Below, piece after piece: positions 5,496-62,139 of a stretch of DNA of 64,000 bases. Position 1 is the first letter of the stretch. Every line of letters begins with the position of its first letter. Source of the DNA: Alphaproteobacteria bacterium (GTDB taxonomy: Bacteria; Pseudomonadota; Alphaproteobacteria; SPJN01); assembly GCA_049609145.1 (NCBI GenBank), contig JBMYYF010000003.1:152256-216255 (forward strand), written 5' to 3'. The position numbers and the translations under genes were made by a program. Under the pieces are notes generated by a model. It searched no databases, was not told where the DNA came from, and was given only the letters and a program-made list of their open reading frames with translations.

Positions 5496-5521
5496 TTACC
5501 AAAGTCCGTTATGATCTACCC

Positions 5522-48374: not shown

Positions 48375-48387
48375 TAGCAGGTCTCCA

Positions 48388-48422
48388 AACGAAAAAAGCC
48401 GCGACTCCTTGCGAAGCGCGGC
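48388..48422 (-). terminator. rho-independent terminator downstream of rpmJ
   Basis: minus strand GGCCGCGCTTCGCAAGGAGTCGCGGC hairpin followed by TTTTTTCGTTT. Confidence 0.55.
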
Positions 48423-48445
48423 CTCAATCCGGTGTTGATGATCGC

Positions 48446-48571
48446 TTAGCCCTGACGAGCCTTCAGGCGCGGATTGCGCTTGTTGATCACGTAAACACGA
48501 CCTTTACGGCGCACGACGCGACAATGGCGATCACGTTTCTTGGCAGACTTCAATGAGTTGACGACTTTCAT
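48446..48571 (-). CDS. rpmJ: 50S ribosomal protein L36 (cysteine-less form)
   Basis: 41 aa [41 protein letters not shown]; ORF-track start trimmed. Confidence 0.8.
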
Positions 48572-48720
48572 GAGATCGCCCTTTCCATAACAAAACCGCC
48601 AGAAATGACGGCACAAATCTTGATGCAAAATCAGTTGGGCGGAACCTATTGAACGCGCTCGCCCCTGTCAACAAAGGGCGGCGCAGCGATTTAGGGCACA
48701 CGGTCGCACGTTGCGCCAGT

Positions 48721-49419
48721 TTAGGCAGAGGCGTGGGCCTGCAACCACCTAATCACCGGCTGGAAAGCTTTTACCTGTTCCAACATAAAGGGCACGGCAT
48801 CGGCAGAAAACAGCGGGGAAGACCCGGGAATATGCCGGGTCATGTAGAAACCGCTATGCTTGAGAAATTCTGCCCGTTTGTGATCGGGGTCAAAACCGCG
48901 AGGCACACGTTTGTAATGAGTGCCACCCGGCCCTTCAAATCCGGCCTTCTCCACTTTTTTAACGGCGCGCAGAAGCGCTGGGCCTTTCTTGTCATCAATA
49001 ATGGCAGCCCGATACGCGTCGCGCGGGCCTGTATCAAAGCGGAACCAGCCACCCGCCAACCACAGCCCGTCAATGCCGATATGCACAAAGGTCCCCGGCC
49101 CTTCCTTCATGCCCTGTGCAGGCTGACGCAAGCGCAGAAACATATTGTGTTTATAGGGCGTCTTGTCCTTGGAAAAGCGCGTATCGCGATTGATACGCCC
49201 AATCGTGCCGCCCACTTTCGGTACGGCTATAATGTCGGGCGATATTTTGGAAAGCCCCGGCGCCAGTGCGGCTACAAAGTCCTTGGCGGGTTCCAGATGC
49301 AAGGCATCATAGTCAGCTCTGTGCGCCTCAAACCATGTCTTGCTATTGTTCTTCTTGAGCGCTTTGTAGAATTTGATCAGCGCCGGATCGAAGCCGGAAA
49401 AAGTTGAAGATACGGACAC
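48721..49419 (-). CDS. DUF2461 (TIGR02453) family protein
   Basis: 232 aa conserved hypothetical family; 3-nt gap to the upstream tetR. Confidence 0.55.
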   Translation of the reverse strand: MSVSSTFSGFDPALIKFYKALKKNNSKTWFEAHRADYDALHLEPAKDFVAALAPGLSKISPDIIAVPKVGGTIGRINRDTRFSKDKTPYKHNMFLRLRQPAQGMKEGPGTFVHIGIDGLWLAGGWFRFDTGPRDAYRAAIIDDKKGPALLRAVKKVEKAGFEGPGGTHYKRVPRGFDPDHKRAEFLKHSGFYMTRHIPGSSPLFSADAVPFMLEQVKAFQPVIRWLQAHASA

Positions 49420-49422
49420 GCG

Positions 49423-50091
49423 CTATTCCTCGTCTGCCGGCATGCCCCCACTCAACAGATGGATTTCCAGAAGACGGGCAAACCATTTACGGAAATCTTT
49501 CCGCATTTCGCTTTGGTCTTCAACGCCAAAACTGTCCAACAGGCCAGACCCAAACACCGCCTCCCCAAAGGCGGCACTTGCTGCCAGCAAGACCACATTC
49601 ATCGTATCCTGTTTGTTTGCACGCGGCAGGCCCAGCTTCTCAGCGCCTTCATCCCGTAGATTGTGGATAACCTCGGAAATATCGCGCATCAGAAATTCAT
49701 CAGCCGTGCCAGCGGGGATATCCGGCATACGGCCAGACAGAACGACCCAAGCCAGCAAACGCGCCAAGCCACGATCTGATAGCACGGAAAAGACCTGCGA
49801 TATCACTTCCCCGGCATCCGGGTTCTGCAGGTCGATATCCTTCAAAAGCTCAATCAAACCTTCACGCAGATTGAGCAATGTGCGCACAGAAAGCGCCAAC
49901 ACAAGCCCATCCCGGCTTTCAAAGTGATGCAAAATGGCCGGATGAGAGATACCTACATCGGCAGCGATGTCTTGCAGGCGCAACGCCTCTGGCCCGCCTT
50001 TGGCCAACCGTTCTTCGGCGGCATCAAGGATCACCCGTCGGGCTTCTTCCTTTGTGCGGCGAACCCGCTTTTTCGGTACTGTATCAGCCAT
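49423..50091 (-). CDS. TetR/AcrR family transcriptional regulator
   Basis: N-terminal HTH (RLQDIAADVGISHPAILHHFESRDGL). Confidence 0.8.
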   Translation of the reverse strand: MADTVPKKRVRRTKEEARRVILDAAEERLAKGGPEALRLQDIAADVGISHPAILHHFESRDGLVLALSVRTLLNLREGLIELLKDIDLQNPDAGEVISQVFSVLSDRGLARLLAWVVLSGRMPDIPAGTADEFLMRDISEVIHNLRDEGAEKLGLPRANKQDTMNVVLLAASAAFGEAVFGSGLLDSFGVEDQSEMRKDFRKWFARLLEIHLLSGGMPADEE

Positions 50092-50100
50092 AGTGATTCG

Positions 50101-50553
50101 TTATCCCCTGCCACGATAGCTTGGCACATTGGCGTCGGGAACCCAAACGCCGCCCGGCACATTGCCGGTTTGATAGAAAATGTCGATCGGCATACCGCCA
50201 CGCGGATACCAGTAGCCACCTATACGCAACCAACGCGGCTGCATCGCCGCGATCAAACGCTTGGCGATCATCACCGTGCAGTCTTCGTGGAACGCGCCAT
50301 GATTACGGAACGATTGAAAAAACAGCTTGAGCGATTTGGATTCAACCAATGCTTGGTCCGGCACGTAGTCGATGACCAAATGAGCAAAATCAGGCTGGCC
50401 TGTCACGGGGCACAGGCTGGTAAATTCTGGCTGCACGAAGCGCACCGCATAGTCCACATCCGGATGTGGGTTGGGCACTGTTTCCAGCACCGCTTCTTCT
50501 GGATTGTTGGCGGCAACGGCCTGGCTGCCAAGTTGTGAAACTTTATCGCTCAT
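50101..50553 (-). CDS. queF: NADPH-dependent 7-cyano-7-deazaguanine reductase (unimodular)
   Basis: QueF motif ...[15 protein letters not shown]...; start at MSDKVSQL overlaps the queD stop (ATGA). Confidence 0.85.
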
Positions 50554-50924
50554 GCCGCGCGCCCCACATATTCGCACCCTTCGTTCAAGGAATCGCGGTG
50601 CACCCCCACTTTGAATAGCGACGGTAACGCCGGAGCCAAAGCGTTGAAGATAAACACGCTGAGATTTTCCAACGTTGGCACCTCAAGTCCCGGCACTTCA
50701 TTCAACGTGTTGTGATCCAGCACGTCGCGCATTTTGGCAATGGCTGCATTCACTTCCTGCAAATCTTGAAGCAAGCCTGTATCCGCATTAGGCACACCGC
50801 GCATGAACACAGCAACACGGAATGAATGCCCGTGCATCCGCCGGTTTGGGTGACCTTCCGGTGCATGGGGCAGGAAATGGGCCGCGTCGAAGCGGAATTC
50901 CTTATATAATTCAACCGTGTGCAT
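50550..50924 (-). CDS. queD: 6-carboxy-5,6,7,8-tetrahydropterin synthase
   Basis: [20 protein letters not shown]...HGHSF catalytic His motifs; ORF-track start trimmed to the conserved N-terminus. Confidence 0.8.
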
Positions 50925-50932
50925 GGCTTTGG

Positions 50933-51562
50933 CTAATCTATGCCCAATATCTTGTGACTTTGCAGGCTTAATGACCAGTGCGGGTGAGATAAGCAATAGG
51001 ACGTAGCCGCGCGGGTGTTTTCCGCCGTTGCCGGCCCGTCCATGGGTTGCAGATAAAAATGGCTGAATTTAAGGCTTTCAAAGCGGGCGGGCATGGCTTT
51101 GGGCTGCGGATAGACCAGCTTCAACTCATCGCCGGAAAGTTGCGCCAGTGGCGCGTCTGCCTTGGGGCTGACACATATCCAGTCAATGCCCTTTGGTGCT
51201 TTGATAGTGCCATTGGTTTCGACCGCTATCTCAAAGGCTTGATCATGCAGTGCATTGATCAGAGCTTGATCAAGCTGCAGCAAGGGCTCCCCGCCGGTAC
51301 ACACAACATAAGGTGTGCCACCACCCGGCCAAAATGACTTGACCCGCGCTGCCAGTTCATCCGCGGCCTTGAACTGACCGCCATTTTGACCATCTACGCC
51401 GACAAAATCGGTATCGCAAAAGGTGCAAACGGCTTGAGTGCGATCACGCTCCAACCCGTTCCAAAGATTGCACCCGGCAAAGCGCAGGAACACCGCCGGG
51501 CGGCCCGCTTGCGCGCCTTCCCCCTGCAGGGTGTAAAACATTTCCTTGATCGAATAAGTCAT
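50933..51562 (-). CDS. queE: 7-carboxy-7-deazaguanine synthase (radical SAM)
   Basis: LQGEG...[12 protein letters not shown] cluster-binding motif. Confidence 0.85.
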
Positions 51563-52269
51563 CGTTCATTCCATGCGGACCATTCTGCATGGCCCTTGGC
51601 ACGCAACTCACACGCAGGGCATGTGCCGCAGCCATAGCCCCAAGAATGGCGCTTGGCACGTACCCCTTCATAGCAGGTGTGGGATTGTTCCAAAATAACA
51701 TCGATCAAACGCTCGCCGCCCAACCGCTCGGCCAAAGCCCATATTTGCGCCTTGGTGATAAACATCAACGGTGTTTCGATTGACACATCTTGATCCAACC
51801 CCAACGACAAAGCCGACGCCATCGCTTTCATCGTATCATCCCGGCAATCGGGATAGCCGGAATAATCCGTCTCGCACATGCCGCCCACAAGCGTTTCAAT
51901 GCCCCGCCGCCAGCCATAAGCCGCAGCCAGCGTGAGAAACAGCAAATTGCGCCCCGGCACAAAGGTATTGGGTAAGCCGCCTTCTTCTGCCTTGATCGCT
52001 ACATCGTGGGTCAGGGCTGTTTGCGCGACATCGCCCAAGACATGGGCTGGCAGCACAATATCAACCCCCAACTTGCCTTTGGCACGGTCCATCATGGCAA
52101 TCGCGACGGCATCGCGCAAAGGGCCGCGCACCTCCATCTCAATGGCGTGACGCTGCCCATAGTCGAAACCGATGGTTTCCACATAATCAAAGCGATCAAG
52201 CGCCCATGCCAGACAGGTGGCACTATCCTGCCCGCCTGAAAACAGCACGAGCGCTTTGGAAACGGTCAT
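51559..52269 (-). CDS. queC: 7-cyano-7-deazaguanine synthase
   Basis: SGGQDS PP-loop, C-terminal zinc cysteines CTCPACELR; 4-nt overlap with queE. Confidence 0.9.
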
Positions 52270-52277
52270 GGCTGGCC

Positions 52278-53243
52278 CTATTCGGCGGCGGCCGCCGCCT
52301 CACCCTTCAGATCAGCGACCAAGGCGGGGTCTGCCTCATCTGCCAAATGGCCTTGCACAAAAGTGCCAATGGTTTTGATCGCCCGCTTACCTTCCGGCAA
52401 AAACCGCGCCAGCACCGGGAACACGTGTGGCATGCCGGGCCAGATCTCCAGCGCCACCGGCACCCCTGCGCGTTTCAGCTTGGCCGCAAGGCGACGGCTG
52501 TCGTCTAACAGCACTTCCGGCTCCCCCACTTGGATCAAGGTTGGCGGCAAGCCAACATGATTGCCGTAATGAGGTGACGCATAGGGTGTTTCAGGGTCTT
52601 GGCCTTGCAAATAGTGCTCTCCGGTTTCAACCAAACGATCACCGGGGATCATCAGGTCTGACGCCAGATTGGTCACGACCGTATCACCCGTACCGGCAAG
52701 GTCGGTCCATGGGGACAAACCAATCGCGCAGGCAGGTAAGGGAATGCCTTCATCACGCATACGCAATAGGGAACCGAAGGTCAGACCGCCACCGGCACTA
52801 TCACCACCAATGGCGATGGCCTCAGAGCGATAGCCTTGTTCCAGCAGCCAGTTATAGGCGGCAATGGCATCGTCCACCGCGGCCGGGAAAGGGGCCTCCG
52901 GCGCCAAACGATAATCAATGGCCAATACGCGTGCACCCGCGGCTTTGGACAAGCGCCACAGCAAATCTTTGTGGGTCGTATCCGGCGCGCCGAAAATATA
53001 GCCGCCGCCATGCAGATAATAGAACACGCGGTTGGGGTCGACCCCTTCGGCATTAACCCAAAAGGCTTTCACACCACCGGCCGAAACTTCTTCAACCTTG
53101 CCGCCCTTGGGCCATTTGCCCGGCGCAGTGCGGGCATTAATTGCCTCGCGCAAGGCTGCAGGCTCCAAGCCGTTTTCCTTATGAATTTGCCGTTTAACTG
53201 TCAGCCGCATTACCAGCCGCACCAAAGATGCCCGAATGCTCAT
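52278..53243 (-). CDS. alpha/beta hydrolase (HSL-type esterase/lipase family)
   Basis: HGGGY oxyanion motif, GDSAGG nucleophile elbow. Confidence 0.75.
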
Positions 53244-53362
53244 GTCCTAATTCTCCCAAATTTCTGCGGTGCTTATACGCCCTACAGCGGCAAAAAACAA
53301 AGCGGGCGGAACTGCCGCAGCATTTTCCGGCCACAAGCCTATATGCGCCCTCTTCGCGCTAT

Positions 53363-53390
53363 TGACAAGATGTCAGCAAGACATAAATTG
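53363..53390 (+). promoter_or_regulatory. candidate sigma70-like promoter (TTGACA-N16-TAAATT) with embedded ATGTC-N5-GACAT palindrome
   Basis: located 36-63 nt upstream of the 53426 start, in a divergent intergenic region. Confidence 0.3.
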
Positions 53391-53425
53391 GATGCTAGAG
53401 GGTTTACTCTAAAGGAAAAGCAAAA

Positions 53426-54271
53426 ATGACACCGAATACCGCTCACCGCGACCAGCCTATTCCGCCGCGGAATATCAAATTCGACCTTGACGATGACTGC
53501 CCCCGCGATTGGTACGACAACGACCCCGCCATCTCCCGTTTCTTTGATGGCATGTCCATCGTATTCCCCGAAGGCGAGCGCTTTTTTATTGAGGCCGTAC
53601 GCCACTACAAGGACCGCGTTGACGATCCACGCCTGCTGGAGCAAATGCGGGGCTTCATTGCGCAAGAAGCGATCCATGGCCGGGAGCACGAAGTCTACAA
53701 CGAGCTGATGCAGAAAAATGGCCTGCCGCAAAAAAAGCTGGATGCCCAGTTCATGTGGCTGATCACCCGCGCCCGCAAAATTCTGCCTTGGAAGGCCAAG
53801 CTTGCCGGCACCTGTGCCGCAGAACATTACACGGCAATGTTGGCTGACTCCGTTCTCTCCGACCCGACATGGAACGAAAAAACTCATCCCGTATATCGTG
53901 ATCTTTGGAACTGGCATGCCGTGGAAGAAACCGAGCACAAATCGGTGGCCTATGATGTTTACCAAACTGTCCACACGGGTTGGAAAGGCTATCTACAACG
54001 CATCTTCTCCTACACCATGGTCTTGATTGTGCTGAACATTCGCTTCGCCTACCATTGGATTACACTGATGCGCTCTACGGGTGATCTGAACCTCAAGGCA
54101 GTTGGCCGCCTGTTCTGGTTCATCTGGGGCAAGCCGGGCCTGTATCGCCGCCAACTTGGGCAAGCCCTGGCCTATTACAAACCAAGCTATCACCCATGGG
54201 ATCACGACAACCGCGAACAAGTAGAGGCGTGGAAAGAAATCAGCGCCCCTGAGCTGATGGCAGCCGAATAG
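53426..54271 (+). CDS. predicted metal-dependent hydrolase (PF10118-like)
   Basis: ISRFFDGMSIVFPEGERFFIEAVR...HGREH...HAVEETEH His/Glu-rich pattern; family assignment from memory. Confidence 0.5.
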   Translation: MTPNTAHRDQPIPPRNIKFDLDDDCPRDWYDNDPAISRFFDGMSIVFPEGERFFIEAVRHYKDRVDDPRLLEQMRGFIAQEAIHGREHEVYNELMQKNGLPQKKLDAQFMWLITRARKILPWKAKLAGTCAAEHYTAMLADSVLSDPTWNEKTHPVYRDLWNWHAVEETEHKSVAYDVYQTVHTGWKGYLQRIFSYTMVLIVLNIRFAYHWITLMRSTGDLNLKAVGRLFWFIWGKPGLYRRQLGQALAYYKPSYHPWDHDNREQVEAWKEISAPELMAAE

Positions 54272-54355
54272 ACAAGGCGGCTCACCCAAGGCAAATCACA
54301 TGCTATACTGTGGCTCGGTACATCACCGGGCCACACGCACAATGAGGGAAAGACA

Positions 54356-55195
54356 ATGACAAAAATCAAAGACAAAGTGGCAATCGTCACCGGCGCTGCC
54401 AGTGGTATGGGCCGGGATCTGGCTGTTCAACTGGCAGAACGCGGTGCAAAGGCCGTTGTGATTTGCGACGTGAACGAAGCTGAGCTTGCCAAAACCGAAG
54501 AAATGGTGAAACGCCTGCAAGTGCCAGTACTGTCCCGCAAGGTAGACGTGGCCGATCGCACTGCCGTTGAAACCTTGGCAGAAGACACGATTAGCCAGTT
54601 TGGCGGCGTGGACCTTATGTTCAACAATGCCGGGGTCGCCACAGGCTCCACCGCGCAAGATGCCAAATATGAAGACATTGAATGGCTGATGGGCATTAAT
54701 TTCTGGGGCGTGATCTATGGCACCAAAGCTGTATTGAACCACATGCTGGAAAAAGGTGAAGGCCATATCATCAACACCTCCTCCATCTTTGGCTTTATCG
54801 GTGTGCCTTCGCAAACCGCCTATTGCGCCGCCAAATTTGGCGTGCGCGGCTATACCGAAAGCCTGATCCACGAACTTGAAGGGCTGGACGTTCATGCCAC
54901 CACCGTTCACCCCGGCGGCATTAAAACCAACATTGCAGCCAATGCGCGCATGGACCCCACCACGGGCGTTGATAAAGCAGATGCTGCCGCCAATTTTGAA
55001 AAGCTGGCGCGCACCACATCAGCCGATGCAGCGAAGGTTATTTTGAACGGTGTTGAAAAGAACAAAAAGCGTGTCATGATTGGCGGCGACGCACATGTGA
55101 TCACACGCATGGTACGCTACTTCCCGCGCACCTATTATTGGATTTTGGGCCGCATGGGTAAACGCGCGCGCGCCGAACTAAAAAACGCAGGGTAG
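54356..55195 (+). CDS. SDR family oxidoreductase
   Basis: TGAASGMG, NNAG, YCAAK catalytic motifs. Confidence 0.8.
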   Translation: MTKIKDKVAIVTGAASGMGRDLAVQLAERGAKAVVICDVNEAELAKTEEMVKRLQVPVLSRKVDVADRTAVETLAEDTISQFGGVDLMFNNAGVATGSTAQDAKYEDIEWLMGINFWGVIYGTKAVLNHMLEKGEGHIINTSSIFGFIGVPSQTAYCAAKFGVRGYTESLIHELEGLDVHATTVHPGGIKTNIAANARMDPTTGVDKADAAANFEKLARTTSADAAKVILNGVEKNKKRVMIGGDAHVITRMVRYFPRTYYWILGRMGKRARAELKNAG

Positions 55196-55217
55196 TGCCG
55201 CTTTCCGGTATCCCCTG

Positions 55218-56096
55218 TTGCACGATGGGGGATACCGATTGTTTGATACACTGATTGATGGCCTTGCCTTTGGGGAAGGCCCACGCTGGCACGAAGGTGA
55301 GCAGCGCCTTTATTTCTCTGACATGCATGCAGGCCAGGTTCTCGCCGTTGATGGTGATGGCAATGTGGACCTGATTGCCGAAGTTGAGAACGATCCCTCC
55401 GGCCTTGGTTGGTTGCCCGATGGCCGTTTGCTGATTGTCTCCATGAAAGACCGCAAGCTGCTGGTGCAAGAGACAAGCGGCGACTTAACCATCCATGCGG
55501 ACTTATCCGATATTGCTACTTTCCATTGCAACGACATGGTGGTTGATAATCAAGGCCGCGCTTATGTGGGTAATTTTGGTTTCGATCTTCACGCCGCCCA
55601 AAAAGGCAGCTTCCAACCTGCCACGTTGGCGATTGTCGATCTCGATGGCACGGCACAGGCAGGGCCAGCGGACATGTATTTTCCCAATGGCTCTGTTATC
55701 ACTGATGACGGTAAAACCCTTGTAGTGGCAGAAACATTTGCGGGCCGCCTTGCTGAGTTTGATATCGCAGCCGATGGCAGCCTTTCCAATCGCCGTGTGT
55801 GGGCCAACCTGCCGGAGGGCATAACGCCTGATGGCATAGCCATGGATATTGCGGGCGACATTTGGGTGACATGCCCTTCTTCCGGCAAAGTCTATTTGAT
55901 TGAAGAAGGCGGCGCGGTGAAAGAAACGCTTGCCCCCAGCCAAAACCCCTTTGCTTGTATGTTGGGCGGGCCGGATGGCAAAACGCTGTTTGTGCTTACC
56001 GCTACTGATTCTCACCCAGACAAAGCCAAGACTTCCCGCTCCGGCAAACTTGAAGTCACCCGTGTCGCCGCAGGCAGAGGATATGCCAAACCATGA
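55218..56096 (+). CDS. SMP-30/gluconolactonase/LRE family lactonase
   Basis: GEGPRWHEG...LYFSD N-terminus and six-blade propeller pattern; only TTG/CTG in-frame starts are available. Confidence 0.7.
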   Translation: MHDGGYRLFDTLIDGLAFGEGPRWHEGEQRLYFSDMHAGQVLAVDGDGNVDLIAEVENDPSGLGWLPDGRLLIVSMKDRKLLVQETSGDLTIHADLSDIATFHCNDMVVDNQGRAYVGNFGFDLHAAQKGSFQPATLAIVDLDGTAQAGPADMYFPNGSVITDDGKTLVVAETFAGRLAEFDIAADGSLSNRRVWANLPEGITPDGIAMDIAGDIWVTCPSSGKVYLIEEGGAVKETLAPSQNPFACMLGGPDGKTLFVLTATDSHPDKAKTSRSGKLEVTRVAAGRGYAKP

Positions 56097-57193
56097 CCAA
56101 GCGTACCGACATCCCCACACCCGCCATGATCCTTGATCTAGACGCCTTCGAGCGCAATGTCGCCAAAATGGCTAATCATTGCGCGGCGAATGGTATGGCG
56201 CTGCGGCCTCATGCGAAAACCCATAAGTCAGCCGATATCGCCAAAGCACAAATCAAAGCAGGTGCCGTTGGGGTGTGCTGCGCCAAGCTGGCAGAAGCTG
56301 AAGCACTGGCGGCGGCGGGTATTCAAGACATCCTCCTCACCTCTCCCATCGTGACTGATAATAGTCATGCGCGCGCGGTGGCGCTGGCACAAAAAATCGA
56401 ACGATTGGCCGTGACGGTTGATTATCCAGATGTCGCTGCCCGCCTTGCAGATGCCGCAAAGGCCGCGGGCCTTACCCTGCCCGTATTGGTCGACTTGAAT
56501 GTCGGCACCATGCGCACAGGTATTTTTCCCGGTCAGCTTTCCACCGCCTTGGCGCAACAGATTGATGCCGCACCAGCCCTTTCGTTTGAGGGTTTCCAAG
56601 CCTATGCAGGCCACTTGATGCATCTTGCCACCAAGCAAGAACGTGCCAATGGCAATCAAGACGCTATGGCGCAAATGCAGGTCGCCATTAAGGCCGCACA
56701 GGCTGCCGGACTTGATCCCGCCATTCTCACCGGCGGCGGCACGGGCACATACAACATTGAACCGGACAGCGGCGTACTGAATGAACTGCAAGCAGGCAGC
56801 TATATCTTTATGGACAAGGAATATGGTGATGTGGCGGGCAATGACTGGCAGGACATTGCGTTTGAGCCCTCCCTCTTTATCGACACCACAGTGATCAGCG
56901 CCAACAATCCGGGCTTTGTCACCACCGATGCGGGCTTTAAAAGCTTCGCCATGGATGGCCCAAAACCTGCCCTTTATAGAGGTGTGGAGGGCGCGAAATA
57001 TTTCTTCATGGGCGATGAGCATGGCGGCATCACGGTGCCCGAAGGTGCAGAACAGCCCGTGCCCGGCACGCGCTTTGCCACCATCGTGCCCCACTGCGAT
57101 CCCACGGTGAATTTGTACGACAATTATCACTGTGTGCGGGGCGATGACCTTGAGGCTGTTTGGCCTGTTACCGCACGGGGCAAAAGCCAATGA
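56093..57193 (+). CDS. DSD1-family PLP-dependent enzyme (alanine racemase-like N-domain / D-serine dehydratase-like C-domain)
   Basis: PAMILDLDAFERN...LRPHAKTHK PLP-lysine region; ATGA overlap with upstream and downstream genes. Confidence 0.65.
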   Translation: MTKRTDIPTPAMILDLDAFERNVAKMANHCAANGMALRPHAKTHKSADIAKAQIKAGAVGVCCAKLAEAEALAAAGIQDILLTSPIVTDNSHARAVALAQKIERLAVTVDYPDVAARLADAAKAAGLTLPVLVDLNVGTMRTGIFPGQLSTALAQQIDAAPALSFEGFQAYAGHLMHLATKQERANGNQDAMAQMQVAIKAAQAAGLDPAILTGGGTGTYNIEPDSGVLNELQAGSYIFMDKEYGDVAGNDWQDIAFEPSLFIDTTVISANNPGFVTTDAGFKSFAMDGPKPALYRGVEGAKYFFMGDEHGGITVPEGAEQPVPGTRFATIVPHCDPTVNLYDNYHCVRGDDLEAVWPVTARGKSQ

Positions 57194-58476
57194 CCAAAGC
57201 AACAATTGAAGGCTGGCAAAACTGGTCCGGTGGACAAAGCGCAGCGCCAGCCCGCATCTTCAAACCGCAAAGCGCGGCGGAGTTAGCAGCAGCCTTACCC
57301 GATCTGCCAACACCCATTCGCCCTGTCGGTTCAGGCCATTCCTTCACGCCCTTGGTACCCACCGATGGCACCATCATAGACATCGCCGCCCTGAACGGCA
57401 TCGTGCGGGTTGATGGCACACAGGCAACACTGCGCGCCGGATCACAATTGCGCACCATCGGCGCTGCCATGCGTGAACGTGACCTCGCGTTCAAAAATCA
57501 GGGCGATATTGACCACCAAACAATTGGTGGCGCGCTTGGCACCGGCACCCATGGCACCGGGCTTAGCCATGGCAGCTTCTCTGACACGTTGATCGGCTGT
57601 TCTTTTCTGTTGGCCGATGGCACGAAATGGCAGCCATCAAATGAAGATGAATTGAATGCCGCGCGGGTTTCCGTCGGCACCCTTGGGCTGATGACCGAGG
57701 CCACGCTTGATCTAACCCCAGCCTATGATCTGGCGGAAGAATCCCAAGCCCTGCCTTTGGATGAAGCATTGGCGGCTGTGCATGGCAACCAGTATCGCCA
57801 TGCAGAGTTTTTCGCCTTCCCGCATGCCGACAATGTGATCCTAAAAACATTGGATATTGCAACCAACGCCCATGACGATTGGCCGGATGCTGAGCCATTG
57901 CCGCAGATTGATGAAGAAACAACAGAAGATGTGATGTTCAAATCTGCCGCAACGACACTCCGGTTTTTTCCCAATCTCGCCCCGGCCCTGCATCAATCCC
58001 TGATGGCGGGCATTGGGGTGGATCGACGCAAAGGCCCCTCCAATCTCATCTTCCCCAGCCCGCGCAATGCCCGCTTCAATGAGATGGAATATGCTGTACC
58101 CCTGTCACAAGGGCCAAACGCGATACGCGCGGTAATTGCCGCCATGCGTGAGGAAGGGCCTGCCTGTATGTGGCCGGTGGAATATCGCACCCTGCCCGCT
58201 TCCACCGCGTGGCTATCACCCGCCTTTGAGCGCGATAGCGTCACCATCTCCATCCACCAATATGGCCCAGTAAACCCCAAACCGCTTTTCGGCCTGATCG
58301 AGCCGCTTCTACGCAAATTTGAAGGTCGGCCCCATTGGGGCAAAATGCATAGCTGCTCAGCACCCGATCTAAGGGCGCTTTATCCCCGCTTTGACGACTT
58401 CGGCACCTTGCGGCAAAAACTGGATCCTGAAGATCGCCTGCTTAATCCCGCTTTGGCGAACTGGCTGGCTGTCTAA
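57190..58476 (+). CDS. FAD-linked aldonolactone oxidase/dehydrogenase (GULO/ALO family)
   Basis: NWSGGQSA...PVGSGHSF FAD-binding PCMH region and C-terminal HWGK motif of the ALO domain. Confidence 0.7.
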   Translation: MTKATIEGWQNWSGGQSAAPARIFKPQSAAELAAALPDLPTPIRPVGSGHSFTPLVPTDGTIIDIAALNGIVRVDGTQATLRAGSQLRTIGAAMRERDLAFKNQGDIDHQTIGGALGTGTHGTGLSHGSFSDTLIGCSFLLADGTKWQPSNEDELNAARVSVGTLGLMTEATLDLTPAYDLAEESQALPLDEALAAVHGNQYRHAEFFAFPHADNVILKTLDIATNAHDDWPDAEPLPQIDEETTEDVMFKSAATTLRFFPNLAPALHQSLMAGIGVDRRKGPSNLIFPSPRNARFNEMEYAVPLSQGPNAIRAVIAAMREEGPACMWPVEYRTLPASTAWLSPAFERDSVTISIHQYGPVNPKPLFGLIEPLLRKFEGRPHWGKMHSCSAPDLRALYPRFDDFGTLRQKLDPEDRLLNPALANWLAV

Positions 58477-58846
58477 CCAGCAGCCACATATGAATGGCCG
58501 CAACCAGCCCTGCACCGAAAACGGTGATGGTTTCCACGGGCGGCACAAATTCGTATTTGGGATGATCGTTCAGCAGGAAATGCGCGATCGCGTGGCCAAC
58601 CATAATCGCATCAAGTATCAATTGATTACGGCGGCGCGCCTTGGCGTTTCCATGCCCGCCCATCCAGTACATTACCCCGAACATAGGAATATGCAGCAAA
58701 ATGAATGCCTGCATGGCGGCCTTGTCGTCCATGCCACTTAATACTGGTAGCAAACGCCATTCATGACGGATCATGGCGTCCAGCTCATGGGTCGCCAGCA
58801 AAGCCAGCGCCAGACAAAACAGTGGCCACCCGAAACGATCAAGCAT
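58442..58846 (-). CDS. hypothetical integral membrane protein
   Basis: 4 predicted TM helices; start moved to MLDRFGW because the upstream 33 nt form a terminator hairpin. Confidence 0.4.
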   Translation of the reverse strand: MLDRFGWPLFCLALALLATHELDAMIRHEWRLLPVLSGMDDKAAMQAFILLHIPMFGVMYWMGGHGNAKARRRNQLILDAIMVGHAIAHFLLNDHPKYEFVPPVETITVFGAGLVAAIHMWLLVRQPASSPKRD

Positions 58847-58852
58847 GATGCT

Positions 58853-58896
58853 ACCCCCAAAAGAAAACGGCACGGTCATTTTACATGACCATGCCG
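58853..58896 (-). terminator. rho-independent terminator downstream of the DUF4170 gene
   Basis: 12-bp stem CGGCATGGTCAT/ATGACCGTGCCG (one mismatch) followed by TTTTCTTTTGGGGG on the minus strand. Confidence 0.5.
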
Positions 58897-58950
58897 CAAT
58901 GTCATTGCAAGGAACGCTAAAAAACGCTCCCTTCTTAAACCGCTAAGGGG

Positions 58951-59148
58951 TTAAACGCGTACCGGCTCTTCAGCTATGGTAAAGCGTACCAAGGCACGCC
59001 CGGCAGAGCCCGAAAGGCGTTTCCATTCTTCCAGCGCTTCGTCGCGCGCATAGAACGGCCCTGCAATCGTGCCGGTGCCTTCCTTCAACGCTTCGAAGTT
59101 GGAGTTGGTGTATTCCCCACCCACAACCCAATACTTCTTCGCAGGCAT
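58951..59148 (-). CDS. DUF4170 domain-containing protein
   Basis: 65 aa MPAKKYWVVGGEYTNSNFE... family; AGGAGA RBS. Confidence 0.5.
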   Translation of the reverse strand: MPAKKYWVVGGEYTNSNFEALKEGTGTIAGPFYARDEALEEWKRLSGSAGRALVRFTIAEEPVRV

Positions 59149-59170
59149 ATCGTTATCTCCTGTTACGTTT

Positions 59171-59207
59171 CAAGAAAAGCGGGGCGGCGGGTTTACGCCA
59201 CCGCCCC
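59171..59207 (-). terminator. rho-independent terminator downstream of aceA
   Basis: GGGGCGGTGGCG-TAAA-CCCGCCGCCCC hairpin followed by GCTTTTCTT on the minus strand. Confidence 0.45.
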
Positions 59208-59217
59208 AACCTTTTGC

Positions 59218-60498
59218 TTAGTCTTTAAACTGAGCGGACTCGGTTGATTCACCCAGCGCCGTGGTGGAGCTTTCGCCACCAGCCGCAGAAGTTGCAACCA
59301 TATCGAAGTAACCGGTACCCACTTCACGTTGGTGACGCGTTGCGGTGTAGCCGGAAGCTTCTGAAGCAAACTCAGCTTGTTGCAGTTCGGAGTAAGCAGC
59401 CATGCCGCGATCGCGGTAGGCAGAAGCCAGTTCGAACATGCCGTGGTTCAGTTGATGGAAACCAGCCAAGGTCACGAACTGGTACTTGTAGCCCATGGCG
59501 CCAAGTTCACGCTGGTATTTGGCAATGGTGTCTTTGTCCAGATTTGCTTCCCAGTTGAAGGAAGGTGAGCAGTTGTAGGCCAACAATTGGTCAGGATGCT
59601 CTTTCTTCACTTCTTCGGCAAAGCGACGGGCATCGTCCAAATTCGGAACAGATGTTTCCCACCACAGCAGGTCCGCATAGTTCGCGAATTCTTTACCGCG
59701 GGCGATACAATGATCAACGCCGGTGCCATCTTTCAAACGATAGAAGCCTTCAGCCGTACGGCCAGCATCGAAATCGATGAAGTCGTGATCGCGCTCATCA
59801 ATGTCTGACGTAATCAGCTTGGCTGATTCGGCATCGGTACGTGCCATGATCAGCGTGGGAGTACCCATAACGTCGGCGCCAAGGCGGGCCGCGTTCAAGT
59901 TACGCTCATGCTGTTTGGTGGGGATCAATACTTTACCACCCAAATGGCCACATTTCTTTTCAGATGCCAGTTGGTCTTCGTAGTGAACGCCAGCAGCGCC
60001 TGCTTCGATGTAGGCTTTCATCAGCTCAAAGCAGTTCAGCGGGCCACCGAAACCGGCTTCGGCGTCGGCCACGATGGGCAAGAACCAATCACGCTTGGCG
60101 CCACCTTCGGAATGCTCAACTTGGTCTGCACGTTGCAGGGTTTTGTTGATTTTCTTGGCCAGTTCCGGGCCTGAATTGGCGGGGTACAGGCTTTGGTCAG
60201 GGTAGGTTGTGCCTGCGGTGTTGTTATCGGCAGCAACTTGCCAACCTGAAAGGTAGATGGCTTTCAAGCCAGCGCGCGCCATTTGCATGGCTTGGTTGCC
60301 GGACAAGGCACCCAGTGAATGCACATAGTCTTCCGTGTGGATCAAATCCCACAGCTTGTTGGCACCGCGTTCGGCCAAGGTGTACTCAATGCGGAAAGAA
60401 CCGCGCAGTTTTTCAACTTCTTCCGGCGTGTAGTTACGCTTTACGTTGTCGAAGCGGCCTTCGGGCGCGCCGGGAACAAGATCGTAGAAAGTGGTCAT
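59218..60498 (-). CDS. aceA: isocitrate lyase
   Basis: KKCGH catalytic motif, ICL family throughout; start at [10 protein letters not shown] with an AAGGAG RBS. Confidence 0.9.
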
Positions 60499-60630
60499 GG
60501 GGAATACTCCTTGAATTGGACCGAGACTAATCACTCACATGATTATTGGCGCCTGATCTACGCCTGTTAGGTCAAGAACGAAAGCCAAATAAGCAAAAAT
60601 GGCTCTATAAAAAGGTTTCCGTGTATGGTG

Positions 60631-60670
60631 CTTTACATCAACACAGTGTAAAGTTGTAAATCTTGTAAAG
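60631..60670. promoter_or_regulatory. candidate operator: inverted repeat CTTTACA-N9-TGTAAAG followed by direct TGTAAA repeats
   Basis: between divergent aceA and the RamB-like regulator, 18-57 nt upstream of the regulator start. Confidence 0.35.
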
Positions 60671-60687
60671 AAACATGAGGCACGATC

Positions 60688-62139
60688 ATGGCTGATCGGA
60701 AAATATTTGCCGGGCCGCGGATCAAGCGTATCCGCCGGGATTTGGGCCTTTCACAGGCCAGAATGGCCGAGGAATTGGGCATTTCCGGCTCTTATCTCAA
60801 TTTGATTGAGCGCGATCAACGCCCCTTAACCGCGCAGTTGCTGCTGCGCCTGGCAGAAACCTATGACATTGACCTGAAGGCGCTTGCGGGTGACGAAGAA
60901 CAACTCGTCATGGCCGAATTGCGGGAAGTGTTTGCTGATCCGCTTTTTGCGGGCACCGAAATCCTCCAACAAGAGATTCGCGACGTTGCCGCAGCCAGCC
61001 CTGTGCTGTCACAAGCCATCGCGCGGCTGTTTCGCGCCTATCAGGAGGCAATGTCGGGCGCAACAGCCCTCGCGGAGCGCATGGCAGATCGCGACCAAGA
61101 GGTGACCCCAGCCCTTGGCGGCGGCGCCCTTCACCTACCAGTTGAGGAGGTGCGCGACCACTTTCATGCCAAGCGCAATCATTTTCCGGAACTGGATGAG
61201 CGTGCCGAAGATCTCTATGACGCGATCCACAAGGAAGGCGAAGACCCTTATTCCGCCTTGCGCCTATATTTGAAAGACAAGCATGATGTCTCGGTCTCCA
61301 TCATGCCGGTGGATGTGATGGCCGCTTCGCTGCGTCGATACGATCGTCACCGCAAGCGTATCCAGCTTTCGGAACGTCTGGGCTATGCGGCACGCACTTT
61401 CCAGTTGGCTAACCGCATCATCGCTCTGGAATGCGGAGACTTACTGGAACAGGAAGTTTCAAGCAGCGGGCTGGAGGCGGAAGGTGCTGCCCCCCTGTTT
61501 CGGCTGGGCTTATCAAATTATGGCGCAGCCGCCCTTGTCATGCCCTACGGCAAGTTTTTGGAAACGGCCAAAAACTTACGTTACGATGTTGAAGCGCTGT
61601 GCGATCGTTTCTCCGCAAGTTTTGAGCAGGTCTGCCACCGCCTGACCACCCTGCAACGCCCCGGCGCGCGCGGCATTCCCTTTTTCCTGATCCGGGTCGA
61701 TTGCGCAGGCAATGTTTCCAAACGCTTTTCTGCGGGTGGCTTCCACTTCGCACGCTCCGGCGGCACTTGCCCGCGATGGAATGTGCACGAGGCGTTTCGC
61801 ACGCCCGGCCAAATTTATACCCAGATTATCCAACTACCTGACGAAACAGCCTATTTCTCTATCGCCAAAGCAGTTGAGCGTGTGGGGGGAGACGCCGCCA
61901 TTCCCAATCAAACCTTTGCGGTGGGATTGGGCTGTGAAATTTCACATGCAAGCCGTATCACCTATGCACAAAATTATGATCTTGATGATCCGGCGCAGGC
62001 AACACCCATAGGCGTGACCTGCCGGTTATGCGAGCGCGCCGACTGTACACAACGCGCCTTTCCCCCGTTGCGACGGGCACTCACCGTGCACGATCATGTG
62101 CGCGGCGTGTCCCCCTTCACTTTTGTGGGGGATGGTTGA
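60688..62139 (+). CDS. XRE-family HTH regulator with ImmA/IrrE-like and DUF2083 domains (RamB/ScfR-like)
   Basis: N-terminal HTH (IRRDLGLSQARMAEELGISGSYLNLIE), long C-terminal domain with Cys cluster; divergent from aceA. Confidence 0.65.
   Translation: MADRKIFAGPRIKRIRRDLGLSQARMAEELGISGSYLNLIERDQRPLTAQLLLRLAETYDIDLKALAGDEEQLVMAELREVFADPLFAGTEILQQEIRDVAAASPVLSQAIARLFRAYQEAMSGATALAERMADRDQEVTPALGGGALHLPVEEVRDHFHAKRNHFPELDERAEDLYDAIHKEGEDPYSALRLYLKDKHDVSVSIMPVDVMAASLRRYDRHRKRIQLSERLGYAARTFQLANRIIALECGDLLEQEVSSSGLEAEGAAPLFRLGLSNYGAAALVMPYGKFLETAKNLRYDVEALCDRFSASFEQVCHRLTTLQRPGARGIPFFLIRVDCAGNVSKRFSAGGFHFARSGGTCPRWNVHEAFRTPGQIYTQIIQLPDETAYFSIAKAVERVGGDAAIPNQTFAVGLGCEISHASRITYAQNYDLDDPAQATPIGVTCRLCERADCTQRAFPPLRRALTVHDHVRGVSPFTFVGDG

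What the first reader, a model, noticed from the sequence alone, without database searches (positions are those of the whole stretch)
53426..58476. Five-gene lactonase / GULO-like oxidase / DSD1 cluster, a candidate uncharacterised aldonolactone or amino-sugar-acid pathway
Five same-strand genes run in order: a PF10118-like metal hydrolase, an SDR, an SMP-30/gluconolactonase lactonase, a DSD1-type PLP enzyme and a GULO/ALO-family FAD oxidase. The last three are joined by ATGA stop/start overlaps at 56093-56096 and 57190-57193, which implies translational coupling and a shared function. SMP-30/regucalcin and GULO catalyse the two terminal steps of animal ascorbate synthesis. Finding both families in a bacterial operon together with a D-serine-dehydratase-like PLP enzyme is unusual. 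It suggests a pathway that forms and oxidises an aldono-1,4-lactone, or an amino-substituted sugar acid, that has not been described.
Basis: partly seen in the sequence, partly recalled or inferred. Interest (0 to 1): 0.62.

Follow-up and report, generated by a model that had tools for sequence, protein, structure and literature searches.

The report
Amino-alcohol oxidase plus D-aldolase operon
The five genes are real, but only the flavin oxidase and the D-threonine-aldolase-type enzyme recur together widely, in the same pairing as the Pseudomonas sphingosine-detoxifying genes sphC/sphD, so the cluster probably breaks 2-amino-1,3-diols down to glycine plus an aldehyde and is unlikely to make or oxidise vitamin-C-like sugar lactones.

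Summary
**Observation: confirmed.**
- The five + strand genes and all five predicted families are there.
- Both ATGA overlaps are there.
- Two corrections: the oxidase starts at ATG 57190 (428 aa), and the lactonase most likely starts at TTG 55239 (285 aa).

**Interpretation: partly supported.**
- The "DSD1" enzyme is a canonical D-threonine/D-3-hydroxyaspartate-aldolase type. It keeps all five AxDTA catalytic residues, with a His/Asp metal site.
- The "GULO" enzyme belongs to the bacterial subfamily TIGR01679. It falls below the sugar-lactone-oxidase cutoff, and its best solved match is alditol oxidase.
- The five-gene unit exists only in the window's own syntenic clade. There the lactonase is sometimes lost or split off.
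- An ALO-family gene next to a fold-type-III PLP gene recurs in about half of 80 diverse genomes, in four architectures.
- Those genomes include Pseudomonas sphB-sphC-sphD-sphA-sphR. They also include ceramidase-linked operons in Acinetobacter and Saprospira.

**Best reading (confidence about 0.5).** The flavoenzyme oxidises C1 of a (2S)-2-amino-1,3-diol. SDR and lactonase may carry a lactol, lactone, acid branch. The D-specific aldolase then yields glycine plus an aldehyde.

**Status.** This is a cytoplasmic, predicted O2-using variant of the sphCD logic. No step has been shown biochemically.

The parts
53362..53389 (+). Sigma-70-like promoter candidate (TTGACA-16-TAAATT), 37 nt upstream of the first gene. 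It overlaps the palindrome TGACAagaTGTCA.
   Evidence: The consensus scan gives 10 of 12 matches, and the sequence was read. This is a consensus match only and function was not tested. The number of such sites in the region (5) is close to the shuffle expectation (4.1).
53426..54271 (+). PF10118 protein (281 aa). It has a ferritin-like di-metal carboxylate fold and is probably an oxygenase/oxidase, not a hydrolase. Its membership of the pathway is uncertain.
54356..55195 (+). Classical short-chain dehydrogenase/reductase (279 aa) with no specific subfamily. Proposed, by inference only, to act as a lactol or aldehyde dehydrogenase.
   Evidence: adh_short E = 2.5e-52. All NCBIfam hits are below their cutoffs. 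PDB hits are generic FabG-like, at most 124 bits. It is syntenic with the cluster in L001, L002, L003 and L092 only.
55206..55237 (+). Stable 14-bp hairpin between the SDR stop and the lactonase start. Its 3' arm contains the SD-like GGGGGA. Possible attenuator, terminator or translational-coupling element.
   Evidence: Terminator-like scan. MFE -25.1 kcal/mol, z = -2.56. An equivalent hairpin with a changed but still paired stem is present in L001.
55239..56096 (+). SMP-30/gluconolactonase-family six-bladed propeller (285 aa from TTG 55239; the mechanical ORF starts at 55218). A lineage-specific accessory lactonase.
   Evidence: SGL E = 1.1e-47. Best PDB match 7plb at 69 bits. The start matches the L001 gene call. 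It is absent in L003 and separated from DTA in L002 and L092. Homologs 55-61% identical in other phyla sit by acyl-CoA DH/thiolase or CoA-transferase/MaoC genes.
56093..57193 (+). Fold-type-III PLP enzyme of the D-threonine aldolase / D-3-hydroxyaspartate aldolase type (366 aa). Core component.
   Evidence: Ala_racemase_N plus D-ser_dehydrat. PDB 6qkb 262 bits and 4v15 242 bits, against D-Ser dehydratase 3anu at 85 bits. K42, Y171, H177, H334 and D336 align with AxDTA K59, Y187, H193, H347 and D349 (residues from PMC4401734). BhcC equivalog 338 bits against a cutoff of 690.
57190..58476 (+). ALO/AldO-family FAD oxidoreductase (428 aa), bacterial subfamily TIGR01679, with no signal peptide. Core component.
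   Evidence: FAD_binding_4 plus ALO. TIGR01679 379 bits against 292; TIGR01678 163 bits against 397. Best PDB match is alditol/xylitol oxidase 2vfr at 148 bits. GSGHS (H50), E331-x-R333 and H382-W-G-K385 are invariant. G105 sits at the GalDH A113 'gatekeeper' position. The N-terminus has no twin-arginine motif.

Best explanation
**Core module.** The functional core is the translationally coupled pair 56093-57193 (DTA-type PLP aldolase) and 57190-58476 (ALO/alditol-oxidase-family flavoenzyme). It is a cytoplasmic two-step route that degrades a (2S)-2-amino-1,3-diol.

**Candidate substrates.** Sphingoid bases, or smaller amino-polyols.

**Steps, all inferred.**
1. The flavoenzyme oxidises the C1 hydroxymethyl group, as alditol oxidase does with polyols. 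O2 is the likely acceptor because the gatekeeper residue is Gly.
2. The carbon reaches the acid level. This could happen by a second oxidation. For substrates with a 4-OH (phytosphingosine-like or 2-amino-2-deoxy-alditol-like) it could go through lactol, then 1,4-lactone, then acid. The neighbouring SDR would serve as lactol dehydrogenase and the SGL protein as lactonase.
3. The product has the D (2R) configuration, because C1 rather than the former serine carboxyl becomes the carboxylate. A D-specific, Mn-assisted aldolase can therefore cleave it. The products are glycine plus an aldehyde, which would feed fatty-acid or central metabolism.

**Other genes.** PF10118 (a di-iron oxygenase fold) and the divergent esterase may be a separate lipid-related unit.

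**What is shown.** Families, catalytic residues, coupling, and the recurrent pairing across phyla. Substrate, every reaction step and the roles of SDR, SGL and PF10118 are inferred.
For: **The pairing is widespread.**
- In 80 diverse genome loci found with the ALO protein, a fold-type-III PLP gene lies within 3 kb of the ALO gene in about 42: 30 SphD-type, 3 DTA-type and 9 divergent.
- In 80 metagenome loci found with the DTA protein, 16 carry an adjacent ALO gene.
- Four gene architectures occur across Alpha- and Gammaproteobacteria, Acidobacteriota, Bacteroidota, Bacillales and Myxococcota.

**Link to the sph system.**
- Pseudomonas jessenii locus L041 reads cytochrome c, TAT-ALO, Ala_racemase_N protein, porin, AraC.
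- That matches the published sphB-sphC-sphD-sphA-sphR arrangement. The genes are induced by sphingosine, and sphBC are needed to remove sphingosine, sphinganine and phytosphingosine (PMC3900636; PMC11398299).
- SphC and the window protein both pass TIGR01679.

**Ceramidase links.** Ceramidase-ALO-PLP operons occur in Acinetobacter (L005, L010, L011, L013) and Saprospira (L070).

**The PLP enzyme is an aldolase.** It keeps all the catalytic and Mn-site residues of AxDTA.

**The flavoenzyme resembles a polyol oxidase.** Its best solved match is alditol oxidase.

**Oxidase versus dehydrogenase.**
- Window G105 aligns with GalDH A113. There Ala gives a dehydrogenase and Gly gives oxidase activity (PMC11099136).
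- Pseudomonas SphC, which has a cytochrome c partner, carries Ala.

**Shared compartment.** The predicted twin-arginine status of ALO and its PLP neighbour agrees in 57 of 61 paired loci.

**Stereochemistry (inference from CIP rules).** Oxidising C1 of (2S,3R)-sphinganine gives a (2R,3R), D-allo-threonine-like acid. DTAs accept both beta-configurations.

**Local context.** The flanks are lipid and acetate genes: esterase, isocitrate lyase, RamB/ScfR regulator and BVMO. There are no sugar transporters or kinases.
Against: - There is no biochemical proof even for SphC/SphD. The sphingosine product could not be identified, and sphD was dispensable in the growth assay.
- The window's PLP enzyme is only 23% identical to SphD-type partners. 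These lack the His193 equivalent and have Q-S/T-E in place of H-x-D. The analogy is therefore at module level, not orthology.
- No ceramidase, SphR-like regulator, porin or cytochrome c is present in the 64-kb window.
- About 64 of 80 DTA homologs 44-57% identical to the window's have no ALO neighbour, and many ALO homologs are solitary. Neither protein is therefore dedicated to the pairing.
- In the NJ tree the window ALO clade is sister to a clade of solitary ALOs, not inside the SphC clade. The tree has no support values.
- The family also contains a lactone dehydrogenase, M. tuberculosis Rv1771 (PMC11505616), so a lactone substrate cannot be excluded.
- Conservation within the window's clade may partly reflect plain synteny that runs from queCDEF to ICL.
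Confidence: 0.5

Rival explanations
1. Amino-sugar route. The flavoenzyme or the SDR oxidises a free 2-amino-2-deoxy-aldose or -alditol to the aminoaldono-lactone. SGL hydrolyses that to a D-2-amino-2-deoxy-aldonate such as D-glucosaminate. The D-aldolase then cleaves it to glycine plus a shorter aldose.
For: It uses SDR, SGL, DTA and ALO coherently. SGL-DTA-ALO are joined by ATGA overlaps in the window and in L001. 2-amino-aldonates are D-configured beta-hydroxy-alpha-amino acids, which is the substrate class of DTA. AldO-like enzymes act on polyols.
Against: There are no sugar transporter, kinase or sugar-acid genes nearby. SGL is missing in L003 and in every ALO-PLP locus outside the clade. 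Close SGL homologs elsewhere sit with acyl-CoA genes, not sugar genes. The ALO-PLP pairs with an informative context point to ceramide and sphingosine.
Confidence: 0.17
2. Ascorbate-like aldonolactone pathway. SGL forms an aldono-1,4-lactone from an aldonate, and the GULO/ALO homolog oxidises it to an ascorbate analogue. The PLP enzyme has an unrelated or peripheral role.
For: The ALO domain, the HWGK motif and the E-x-R pair are shared with lactone oxidoreductases. A member of the bacterial family, Rv1771, is reported as an L-gulono-gamma-lactone dehydrogenase. SGL is coupled to the operon in the window.
Against: TIGR01678 scores 163 bits, below the cutoff of 397. SGL is never next to ALO in 80 diverse genomes and is lost within the clade. 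The conserved partner is the PLP aldolase, which this model does not explain. Alditol oxidase is the best structural match.
Confidence: 0.1
3. There is no single pathway. The five genes are neighbours by inherited synteny: a lipid-related esterase/PF10118/SDR(/SGL) group next to an independent DTA-ALO pair. Alternatively, the DTA simply degrades free D-threonine or D-hydroxy-amino acids while the ALO enzyme does something unrelated.
For: The whole region from queCDEF to ICL is syntenic in every relative that has the cluster. A strong hairpin separates SDR from SGL. PF10118 and SGL homologs elsewhere have contexts without ALO or DTA. Most DTA homologs lack an ALO neighbour.
Against: The ALO-PLP adjacency recurs in several phyla and in four gene orders, with matching export signals. 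That is far more than synteny or chance would give. Stop/start overlaps link SGL, DTA and ALO. In L003 the SDR stop is 7 bp from the DTA start.
Confidence: 0.15

Closest known systems
Pseudomonas aeruginosa sphBCD (SphR regulon): SphC flavin oxidoreductase plus SphD PLP 'threonine-aldolase-like' enzyme
   Same: An ALO/TIGR01679-family flavoenzyme is encoded next to, and coupled with, a fold-type-III PLP enzyme. The published proposal for it is oxidation of C1 of sphingosine followed by aldol cleavage to glycine plus a long-chain aldehyde (PMC3900636).
   Different: The window proteins have no TAT signals, so they are cytoplasmic. There is no cytochrome c SphB, porin SphA, AraC SphR or ceramidase. 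The gatekeeper residue is Gly rather than Ala. The PLP partner is a canonical DTA, 23% identical to SphD, which lacks the H-x-D metal site. The gene order is reversed. SDR, lactonase and PF10118 genes are added.
Alditol (xylitol) oxidase AldO of Streptomyces coelicolor (PDB 2vfr)
   Same: It is the best solved-structure match (148 bits). It shares the FAD_binding_4 plus ALO architecture and the GSGHS covalent-FAD histidine context. It oxidises the primary C1 alcohol of polyols (family knowledge).
   Different: The similarity is moderate only. AldO has Ala at the position of G105. AldO has no PLP-aldolase partner that I know of. The window enzyme's substrate is unknown.
D-threonine aldolase (A. 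xylosoxidans, 4v15) and D-3-hydroxyaspartate aldolase BhcC (6qkb)
   Same: 242-262 bits over the full length. The PLP lysine, stacking Tyr, His base and His/Asp Mn site are all conserved.
   Different: It scores below the BhcC equivalog cutoff (338 against 690) and has no bhcABD neighbours. The physiological role of DTAs is described as largely unknown (PMC4401734). Here the enzyme is coupled to an ALO-family oxidase.
Animal SMP-30/regucalcin plus GULO, and M. tuberculosis Rv1771 L-gulono-1,4-lactone dehydrogenase
   Same: The same two Pfam families, SGL and FAD_binding_4/ALO. Rv1771 shows that the bacterial family can act on aldonolactones.
   Different: The score is below the sugar-lactone-oxidase subfamily cutoff. 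SGL is not a conserved neighbour of ALO genes. The actinobacterial clade in the tree has no strong (SphD- or DTA-type) PLP partner; two loci carry only weak, opposite-strand PLP matches.

Membership tests
ALO/AldO aldonolactone-alditol oxidoreductase family (VAO superfamily), bacterial subfamily TIGR01679 | FAD_binding_4 N-domain plus ALO C-domain; score above the TIGR01679 cutoff | tested here: met
   PF01565 6.5e-21 and PF04030 2.1e-52. TIGR01679 378.9 bits against a cutoff of 292.25.
ALO/AldO aldonolactone-alditol oxidoreductase family (VAO superfamily), bacterial subfamily TIGR01679 | Histidine for covalent FAD (G-x-G-H-S), C-terminal HWXK motif and the E-x-R substrate-binding pair | tested here: met
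   VGSGHSFT (H50), E331-Y-R333 and H382-W-G-K385 are invariant in 18 homologs. The HWXK role is described in PMC11505616. The roles of the His and of the E/R pair come from family knowledge.
Sugar 1,4-lactone oxidases (GULO/ALO, TIGR01678) | Score above the curated subfamily cutoff | tested here: not met
   162.9 bits against a cutoff of 396.8.
Sugar 1,4-lactone oxidases (GULO/ALO, TIGR01678) | Oxidation of L-gulono-, L-galactono- or D-arabinono-1,4-lactone | not testable with these tools
   This needs an enzyme assay.
D-threonine aldolase type (fold-type III PLP, metal-assisted) | PLP Lys59, Tyr187, base His193 and Mn ligands His347 and Asp349 (AxDTA numbering) | tested here: met
   K42, Y171, H177, H334 and D336 align. 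The residues are defined in PMC4401734. They are invariant in 7 DTA-type partners.
DSD1-type D-serine dehydratase | His/Cys metal site and no His193-equivalent base; closest similarity to dehydratases | tested here: not met
   The site is His334/Asp336 and H177 is present. 3anu scores 85 bits against 262 and 242 bits for the aldolases.
BhcC 3-hydroxy-D-aspartate aldolase (beta-hydroxyaspartate cycle) | NCBIfam equivalog cutoff; bhcA/B/D neighbours | tested here: not met
   338.2 bits against a cutoff of 690. The neighbours are SGL and ALO, not bhc genes.
Pseudomonas sphBCD / SphR regulon | SphC-type (TIGR01679) flavoenzyme adjacent to a fold-type-III PLP gene | tested here: met
   Window pair. 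Pseudomonas L041.
Pseudomonas sphBCD / SphR regulon | TAT-exported SphC with cytochrome c SphB partner; SphD-type PLP protein; SphA porin; AraC SphR; ceramidase in the regulon | tested here: not met
   There is no twin-arginine signal. No cytochrome c, porin, AraC or ceramidase lies near the cluster or in the window. The PLP enzyme is 23% identical to the SphD type.
Pseudomonas sphBCD / SphR regulon | Induction by sphingoid bases and a role in removing them | not testable with these tools
   This needs expression and metabolite experiments.
SMP-30/gluconolactonase (SGL) | SGL six-bladed propeller domain over its full length | tested here: met
   PF08450 1.1e-47, profile positions 1-245 of 246.
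SMP-30 + GULO ascorbate-type module | Conserved genomic association of the lactonase with the ALO-family gene | tested here: not met
   0 of 80 genome loci, and only the clade member L092 among 80 metagenome loci. Lost in L003.
PF10118 'predicted metal-dependent hydrolase' | Pfam model match | tested here: met
   286.5 bits. However, the fold and motifs are those of di-iron oxygenases, so the family's name is doubtful.

The most novel reading that the evidence does not exclude
Canonical D-threonine aldolases have a physiological role described as 'largely unknown'. In many bacteria they may be the second enzyme of a widespread route for degrading 2-amino-1,3-diols and sphingoid bases. This route would need no phosphorylation and no S1P lyase.

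In it an ALO-family flavoenzyme makes the D-configured beta-hydroxy-alpha-amino acid. The window would carry a cytoplasmic, O2-dependent version. An SDR/lactonase branch would handle 4-hydroxylated bases, and an associated di-iron oxygenase (PF10118) would also take part.
Probability: 0.3. Interest if true: 0.72.

Novelty: new variant of a known kind. Interest (0 to 1): 0.5.

Why it matters
If the reading is right, three things follow.
- It gives a testable physiological role to two enzyme groups whose physiological roles are poorly defined: bacterial 'GULO-like' TIGR01679 flavoenzymes and D-threonine aldolases.
- It extends the genetically defined but biochemically unsolved Pseudomonas sphCD logic to cytoplasmic, oxygen-using versions in marine Alphaproteobacteria, Acidobacteriota, Bacteroidota and others.
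- It suggests how bacteria could recover glycine and fatty aldehydes from sphingoid bases, which are abundant eukaryotic and algal lipids and also host antimicrobials, without sphingosine kinase or lyase.

The Gly versus Ala/Pro gatekeeper pattern, which tracks export, is also a simple predictor of oxidase versus dehydrogenase behaviour in this family.

Tried and rejected
1. **Sphingomyelinase lead.** In L151 and L163 an Exo_endo_phos gene sits directly upstream of ALO-DTA, which looked like a sphingomyelinase link. The PDB search shows it is exonuclease III (6fk4, 202 bits), so the lead was rejected.
2. **PF10118 as a conserved member.** Distant PF10118 homologs in Isoalcanivorax, Parvibaculum and Burkholderia have no ALO or DTA neighbours.
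3. **SGL as a sugar-acid lactonase.** Homologs 57-58% identical in other phyla sit by acyl-CoA dehydrogenase/thiolase or CoA-transferase III/MaoC genes. They are not near sugar genes or ALO.
4. **Context of DTA-only metagenome loci (L091, L094, L098).** Greedy ORF calling in these high-GC contigs gave mostly ORFs with no Pfam hit, so this was uninformative.
5. **SDR subfamily.** Only generic FabG-like hits were found.
6. **Rfam scan of 52000-60000.** No RNA family was found.
7. **Literature.** No paper in the searchable library links 'D-threonine aldolase' with 'sphingosine', and none covers marine sphingoid-base degradation by such genes.
8. **Ceramidase, AraC or a second ALO or DTA in the window.** A tblastn of the whole window found none.
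9. **Recurrent third partner.** Clustering of neighbours across 61 paired loci found no universal third gene. Only lineage-specific ones appeared: cytochrome c, AraC, ceramidase and acyl-CoA synthetase.

Full report
**1. The observation**

The five + strand ORFs exist as described. HMM searches confirm every predicted family:

| Coordinates | Family | Score |
|---|---|---|
| 53426-54271 | PF10118 | E = 2.5e-85 |
| 54356-55195 | adh_short | E = 2.5e-52 |
| 55218-56096 | SGL | E = 1.1e-47 |
| 56093-57193 | Ala_racemase_N + D-ser_dehydrat | 2.2e-26 / 6.5e-15 |
| 57190-58476 | FAD_binding_4 + ALO | ALO 2.1e-52 |

- The ATGA overlaps at 56093-56096 and 57190-57193 can be read directly in the sequence.
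- The oxidase is 428 aa from ATG 57190. That is the same length as a 100%-identical protein from a marine alphaproteobacterial MAG. The 438-aa figure is the TTG-extended mechanical ORF.
- The lactonase more likely starts at TTG 55239 (285 aa). This start corresponds to the gene call in the closest relative, L001.
- TTG 55239 follows a 14-bp hairpin at 55206-55237 (dG -25 kcal/mol, z = -2.6). L001 keeps this hairpin with a changed but still paired stem.
- A promoter-like TTGACA-16-TAAATT lies 37 nt upstream of the first gene.

**2. What the two key enzymes are**

The PLP enzyme is not a DSD1-type dehydratase.
- Its best solved relatives are D-3-hydroxyaspartate aldolase (6qkb, 262 bits) and D-threonine aldolases (4v15 at 242 bits, also 7yqa and 7dib).
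- D-serine dehydratase (3anu) and D-threo-3-hydroxyaspartate dehydratase score only about 85 bits.
- In the residue-by-residue alignment to AxDTA, window K42, Y171, H177, H334 and D336 match K59 (PLP), Y187, H193 (base), H347 and D349 (Mn site). These residues are defined in PMC4401734.
- That paper notes that dehydratases use His/Cys and lack His193.
- The enzyme scores below the BhcC equivalog cutoff (338 against 690).

The flavoenzyme belongs to the bacterial subfamily.
- It passes TIGR01679 (379 bits against 292) but fails the sugar-1,4-lactone-oxidase model TIGR01678 (163 bits against 397).
- Among solved structures it is closest to alditol/xylitol oxidase (2vfr, 148 bits). GalDH scores 92 bits.
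- It keeps the GSGHS histidine, E331-x-R333 and HWGK.
- It has no signal peptide.
- It has Gly105 at the position of GalDH Ala113. Ala blocks O2 at that position, while ALO and GULO oxidases carry Gly (PMC11099136).

**3. Is the cluster conserved as a unit?**

Only within its own clade.

| Locus | ALO identity | Arrangement |
|---|---|---|
| L001 | 81% | SDR-SGL-DTA-ALO |
| L002 | 53% | SDR-SGL, then a 4.5-kb insertion (a chaperone-usher cluster in L002), then DTA-ALO |
| L092 | 54% | as L002 (insertion content not checked) |
| L003 | 51% | two PF10118 genes-SDR-DTA-ALO, no lactonase |

- All four loci share synteny from queCDEF and the esterase on one side to isocitrate lyase and the RamB/ScfR regulator on the other. 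Conservation of the accessory genes therefore cannot be separated from common descent.
- Outside the clade, SGL, the SDR and PF10118 are never next to ALO genes.
- PF10118 relatives 42-43% identical (Isoalcanivorax, Parvibaculum, Burkholderia) have no ALO or DTA neighbours.
- SGL relatives 57-58% identical sit beside acyl-CoA dehydrogenase/thiolase or CoA-transferase/MaoC genes.

**4. What is conserved**

The pairing of an ALO-family gene with a fold-type-III PLP gene is what recurs.
- In 80 genome loci recovered with an ALO alignment, 30 have an SphD-type PLP gene immediately downstream. Three have a DTA-type gene nearby, directly upstream in two and 2.2 kb upstream in L057. Nine have a more divergent Ala_racemase_N gene nearby.
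- In 80 metagenome loci recovered with a DTA alignment, 16 have an adjacent ALO gene, mostly in the order ALO then DTA.
- The taxa span Gamma- and Alphaproteobacteria, Acidobacteriota, Bacteroidota, Bacillales and Myxococcota.
- The predicted twin-arginine status of the two proteins agrees in 57 of 61 paired loci. This points to action in the same compartment.
- Neither family is dedicated to the pairing. Many ALO genes are solitary, and about 64 of 80 DTA homologs lack an ALO neighbour.

**5. Link to known biology**

- In Pseudomonas jessenii (L041) the locus reads: lipoprotein cytochrome c, TAT-signal ALO protein, Ala_racemase_N protein (which also has an RRNFLL motif), Phenol_MetA_deg porin, AraC regulator.
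- This is the sphB-sphC-sphD-sphA-sphR arrangement described for P. aeruginosa.
- There the genes belong to the sphingosine-responsive SphR regulon together with the ceramidase cerN (PMC3900636).
- sphB and sphC are needed to deplete sphingosine and for growth with sphingosine, sphinganine and phytosphingosine (PMC11398299).
- The authors proposed oxidation of C1 followed by aldol cleavage to glycine plus a long-chain aldehyde. They could not identify the product, and sphD was dispensable in their assay.
- SphC, the Acinetobacter, Saprospira and L151 proteins, and the window protein all pass TIGR01679.
- Independent context support comes from Acinetobacter (AraC, ceramidase, ALO, SphD-type PLP, with an acyl-CoA synthetase nearby) and from Saprospira (ceramidase, PLP, ALO).

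**6. Differences from sphCD**

- The window's PLP partner is a canonical DTA, only 23% identical to SphD-type proteins.
- SphD-type proteins keep the lysine and tyrosine. They have Q-S/T-E in place of H-x-D and lack the His193 equivalent.
- The window proteins are cytoplasmic. There is no cytochrome c, porin, AraC regulator or ceramidase in the 64 kb.
- The gatekeeper residue differs. Across 85 homologs, all 67 without a TAT signal have Gly. The 17 TAT forms have Ala (nine, the Pseudomonas SphC group) or Pro (eight).
- In an unsupported NJ tree the window clade is sister to a clade of solitary alphaproteobacterial ALOs. Both together are sister to the SphC clade. Actinobacterial and Firmicute proteins are more distant.

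**7. Proposed mechanism (inferred)**

1. The flavoenzyme oxidises the C1 hydroxymethyl of a (2S)-2-amino-1,3-diol.
2. By the CIP rules, converting C1 of (2S,3R)-sphinganine to a carboxylate gives a (2R,3R) acid. That is a D-allo-threonine homologue.
3. This explains why the recurrent partner is a D-specific fold-type-III enzyme and not an L-threonine aldolase. DTAs tolerate both beta-configurations.
4. Cleavage gives glycine plus an aldehyde.
5. For substrates with a 4-OH, the C1 aldehyde would cyclise to a lactol. An SDR (lactol to 1,4-lactone) and an SGL lactonase (lactone to acid) would then complete the path to the acid.
6. That SDR-plus-lactonase step parallels aldose dehydrogenase/lactonase pairs (family knowledge). 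It would give roles to four of the five genes, and it would explain why the lactonase is dispensable in some relatives.

I put about 0.5 on the general chemistry, and less, about 0.3, on sphingoid bases as the specific substrate.

**8. Rivals**

- **Amino-sugar/aminoaldonate version (about 0.17).** It uses the same enzymes but lacks any sugar context.
- **Ascorbate-like lactone pathway (about 0.1).** It does not explain the conserved PLP partner, and the lactonase is not conserved with ALO.
- **Mere synteny of unrelated genes (about 0.15).** It is contradicted for the DTA-ALO pair but remains possible for PF10118, the SDR and the esterase.

**9. PF10118**

- The 'metal hydrolase' label is doubtful.
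- Homologs have invariant E51, E81xxH84, E133/H134 and E167/168xxH171.
- The AF2 model is confident (pLDDT 92).

**10. Verdict**

The families and the operon are right and the 'amino-substituted acid' idea is plausible, but the SMP-30/GULO ascorbate analogy is not supported.
- The finding is a new variant (cytoplasmic, predicted oxidase, canonical DTA partner, extra SDR and lactonase) of a known but biochemically unresolved kind of module, sphCD.
- Interest is moderate. The recurrent DTA-ALO pairing offers a concrete, testable physiological role for D-threonine aldolases and for bacterial GULO-like flavoenzymes.

Noticed in passing
window 55206-55237 (+); L001 606-640: A 14-bp hairpin (dG -25 kcal/mol, z = -2.6) lies between the SDR stop and the lactonase start TTG 55239. 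Its 3' arm contains the SD-like GGGGGA. L001 keeps it with a changed but still paired stem, and L002 does not have it. It could be a terminator or attenuator, or it could couple lactonase translation to SDR translation.
   Followed up: partly
[not shown]
   Followed up: yes
window residue G105 of the 57190-58476 protein; loci L001-L087: At the flavin 'gatekeeper' position (GalDH A113), all 67 ALO homologs without a twin-arginine signal have Gly. The 17 TAT-exported ones have Ala (nine, the Pseudomonas SphC group) or Pro (eight). This may be a simple marker of oxidase versus dehydrogenase behaviour that tracks the compartment.
   Followed up: partly
L041 11275-12558; L028 11400-12692; L042 8653-9921: The PLP partners of TAT-exported ALO proteins carry twin-arginine motifs themselves (RRNFLL, RRGFLI, RRDFIA). 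TAT status agrees between partners in 57 of 61 loci. The sph papers I read describe SphC as TAT-secreted and say nothing about SphD.
   Followed up: partly
window 53362-53389: A promoter-like TTGACA-16-TAAATT overlaps a perfect palindrome, TGACAagaTGTCA, which could be an operator. A TetR-family gene lies at 49423-50091 (-).
   Followed up: no
L002 2358-6664; L092 about 3500-8000: An insertion of about 4.5 kb sits exactly between the lactonase and the DTA gene in two clade members. In L002 it is a chaperone-usher fimbrial cluster (SCPU, Usher, PapD); the content of the L092 gap was not examined.
   Followed up: no
L005 5099-10469; L010, L011, L013; L070 2749-7017: Acinetobacter (AraC, ceramidase, ALO, SphD-type PLP, with an acyl-CoA synthetase nearby) and Saprospira (ceramidase, PLP, ALO) carry apparently cytoplasmic ceramide and sphingoid-base operons. 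I found no description of these in the searched literature.
   Followed up: partly
L171-L173: The lactonase belongs to a subfamily that is unusually conserved (55-61% identity) across distant phyla, including Binataceae, Myxococcota and Acidobacteriota. Its genes sit next to acyl-CoA dehydrogenase/thiolase or CoA-transferase III/MaoC genes. This suggests a non-sugar, CoA-linked lactone or ester substrate.
   Followed up: partly
window 47763-53243 and 58442-63723: The flanks hold HAD hydrolase, DUF2461, TetR, queF-queD-queE-queC and an Abhydrolase_3 esterase on one side. On the other side are DUF6713, isocitrate lyase, a RamB/ScfR-type regulator and an FMO/BVMO-like monooxygenase. The malate synthase found between ICL and the regulator in L001 and L003 is absent from this position in the window.
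   Followed up: no
L057 6626-11182: In a Pseudomonadales MAG the DTA-type and ALO genes bracket a MaoC-like hydratase and a family III CoA-transferase, with overlapping stops and starts. This is a different elaboration of the pair and its meaning is unknown.
   Followed up: no
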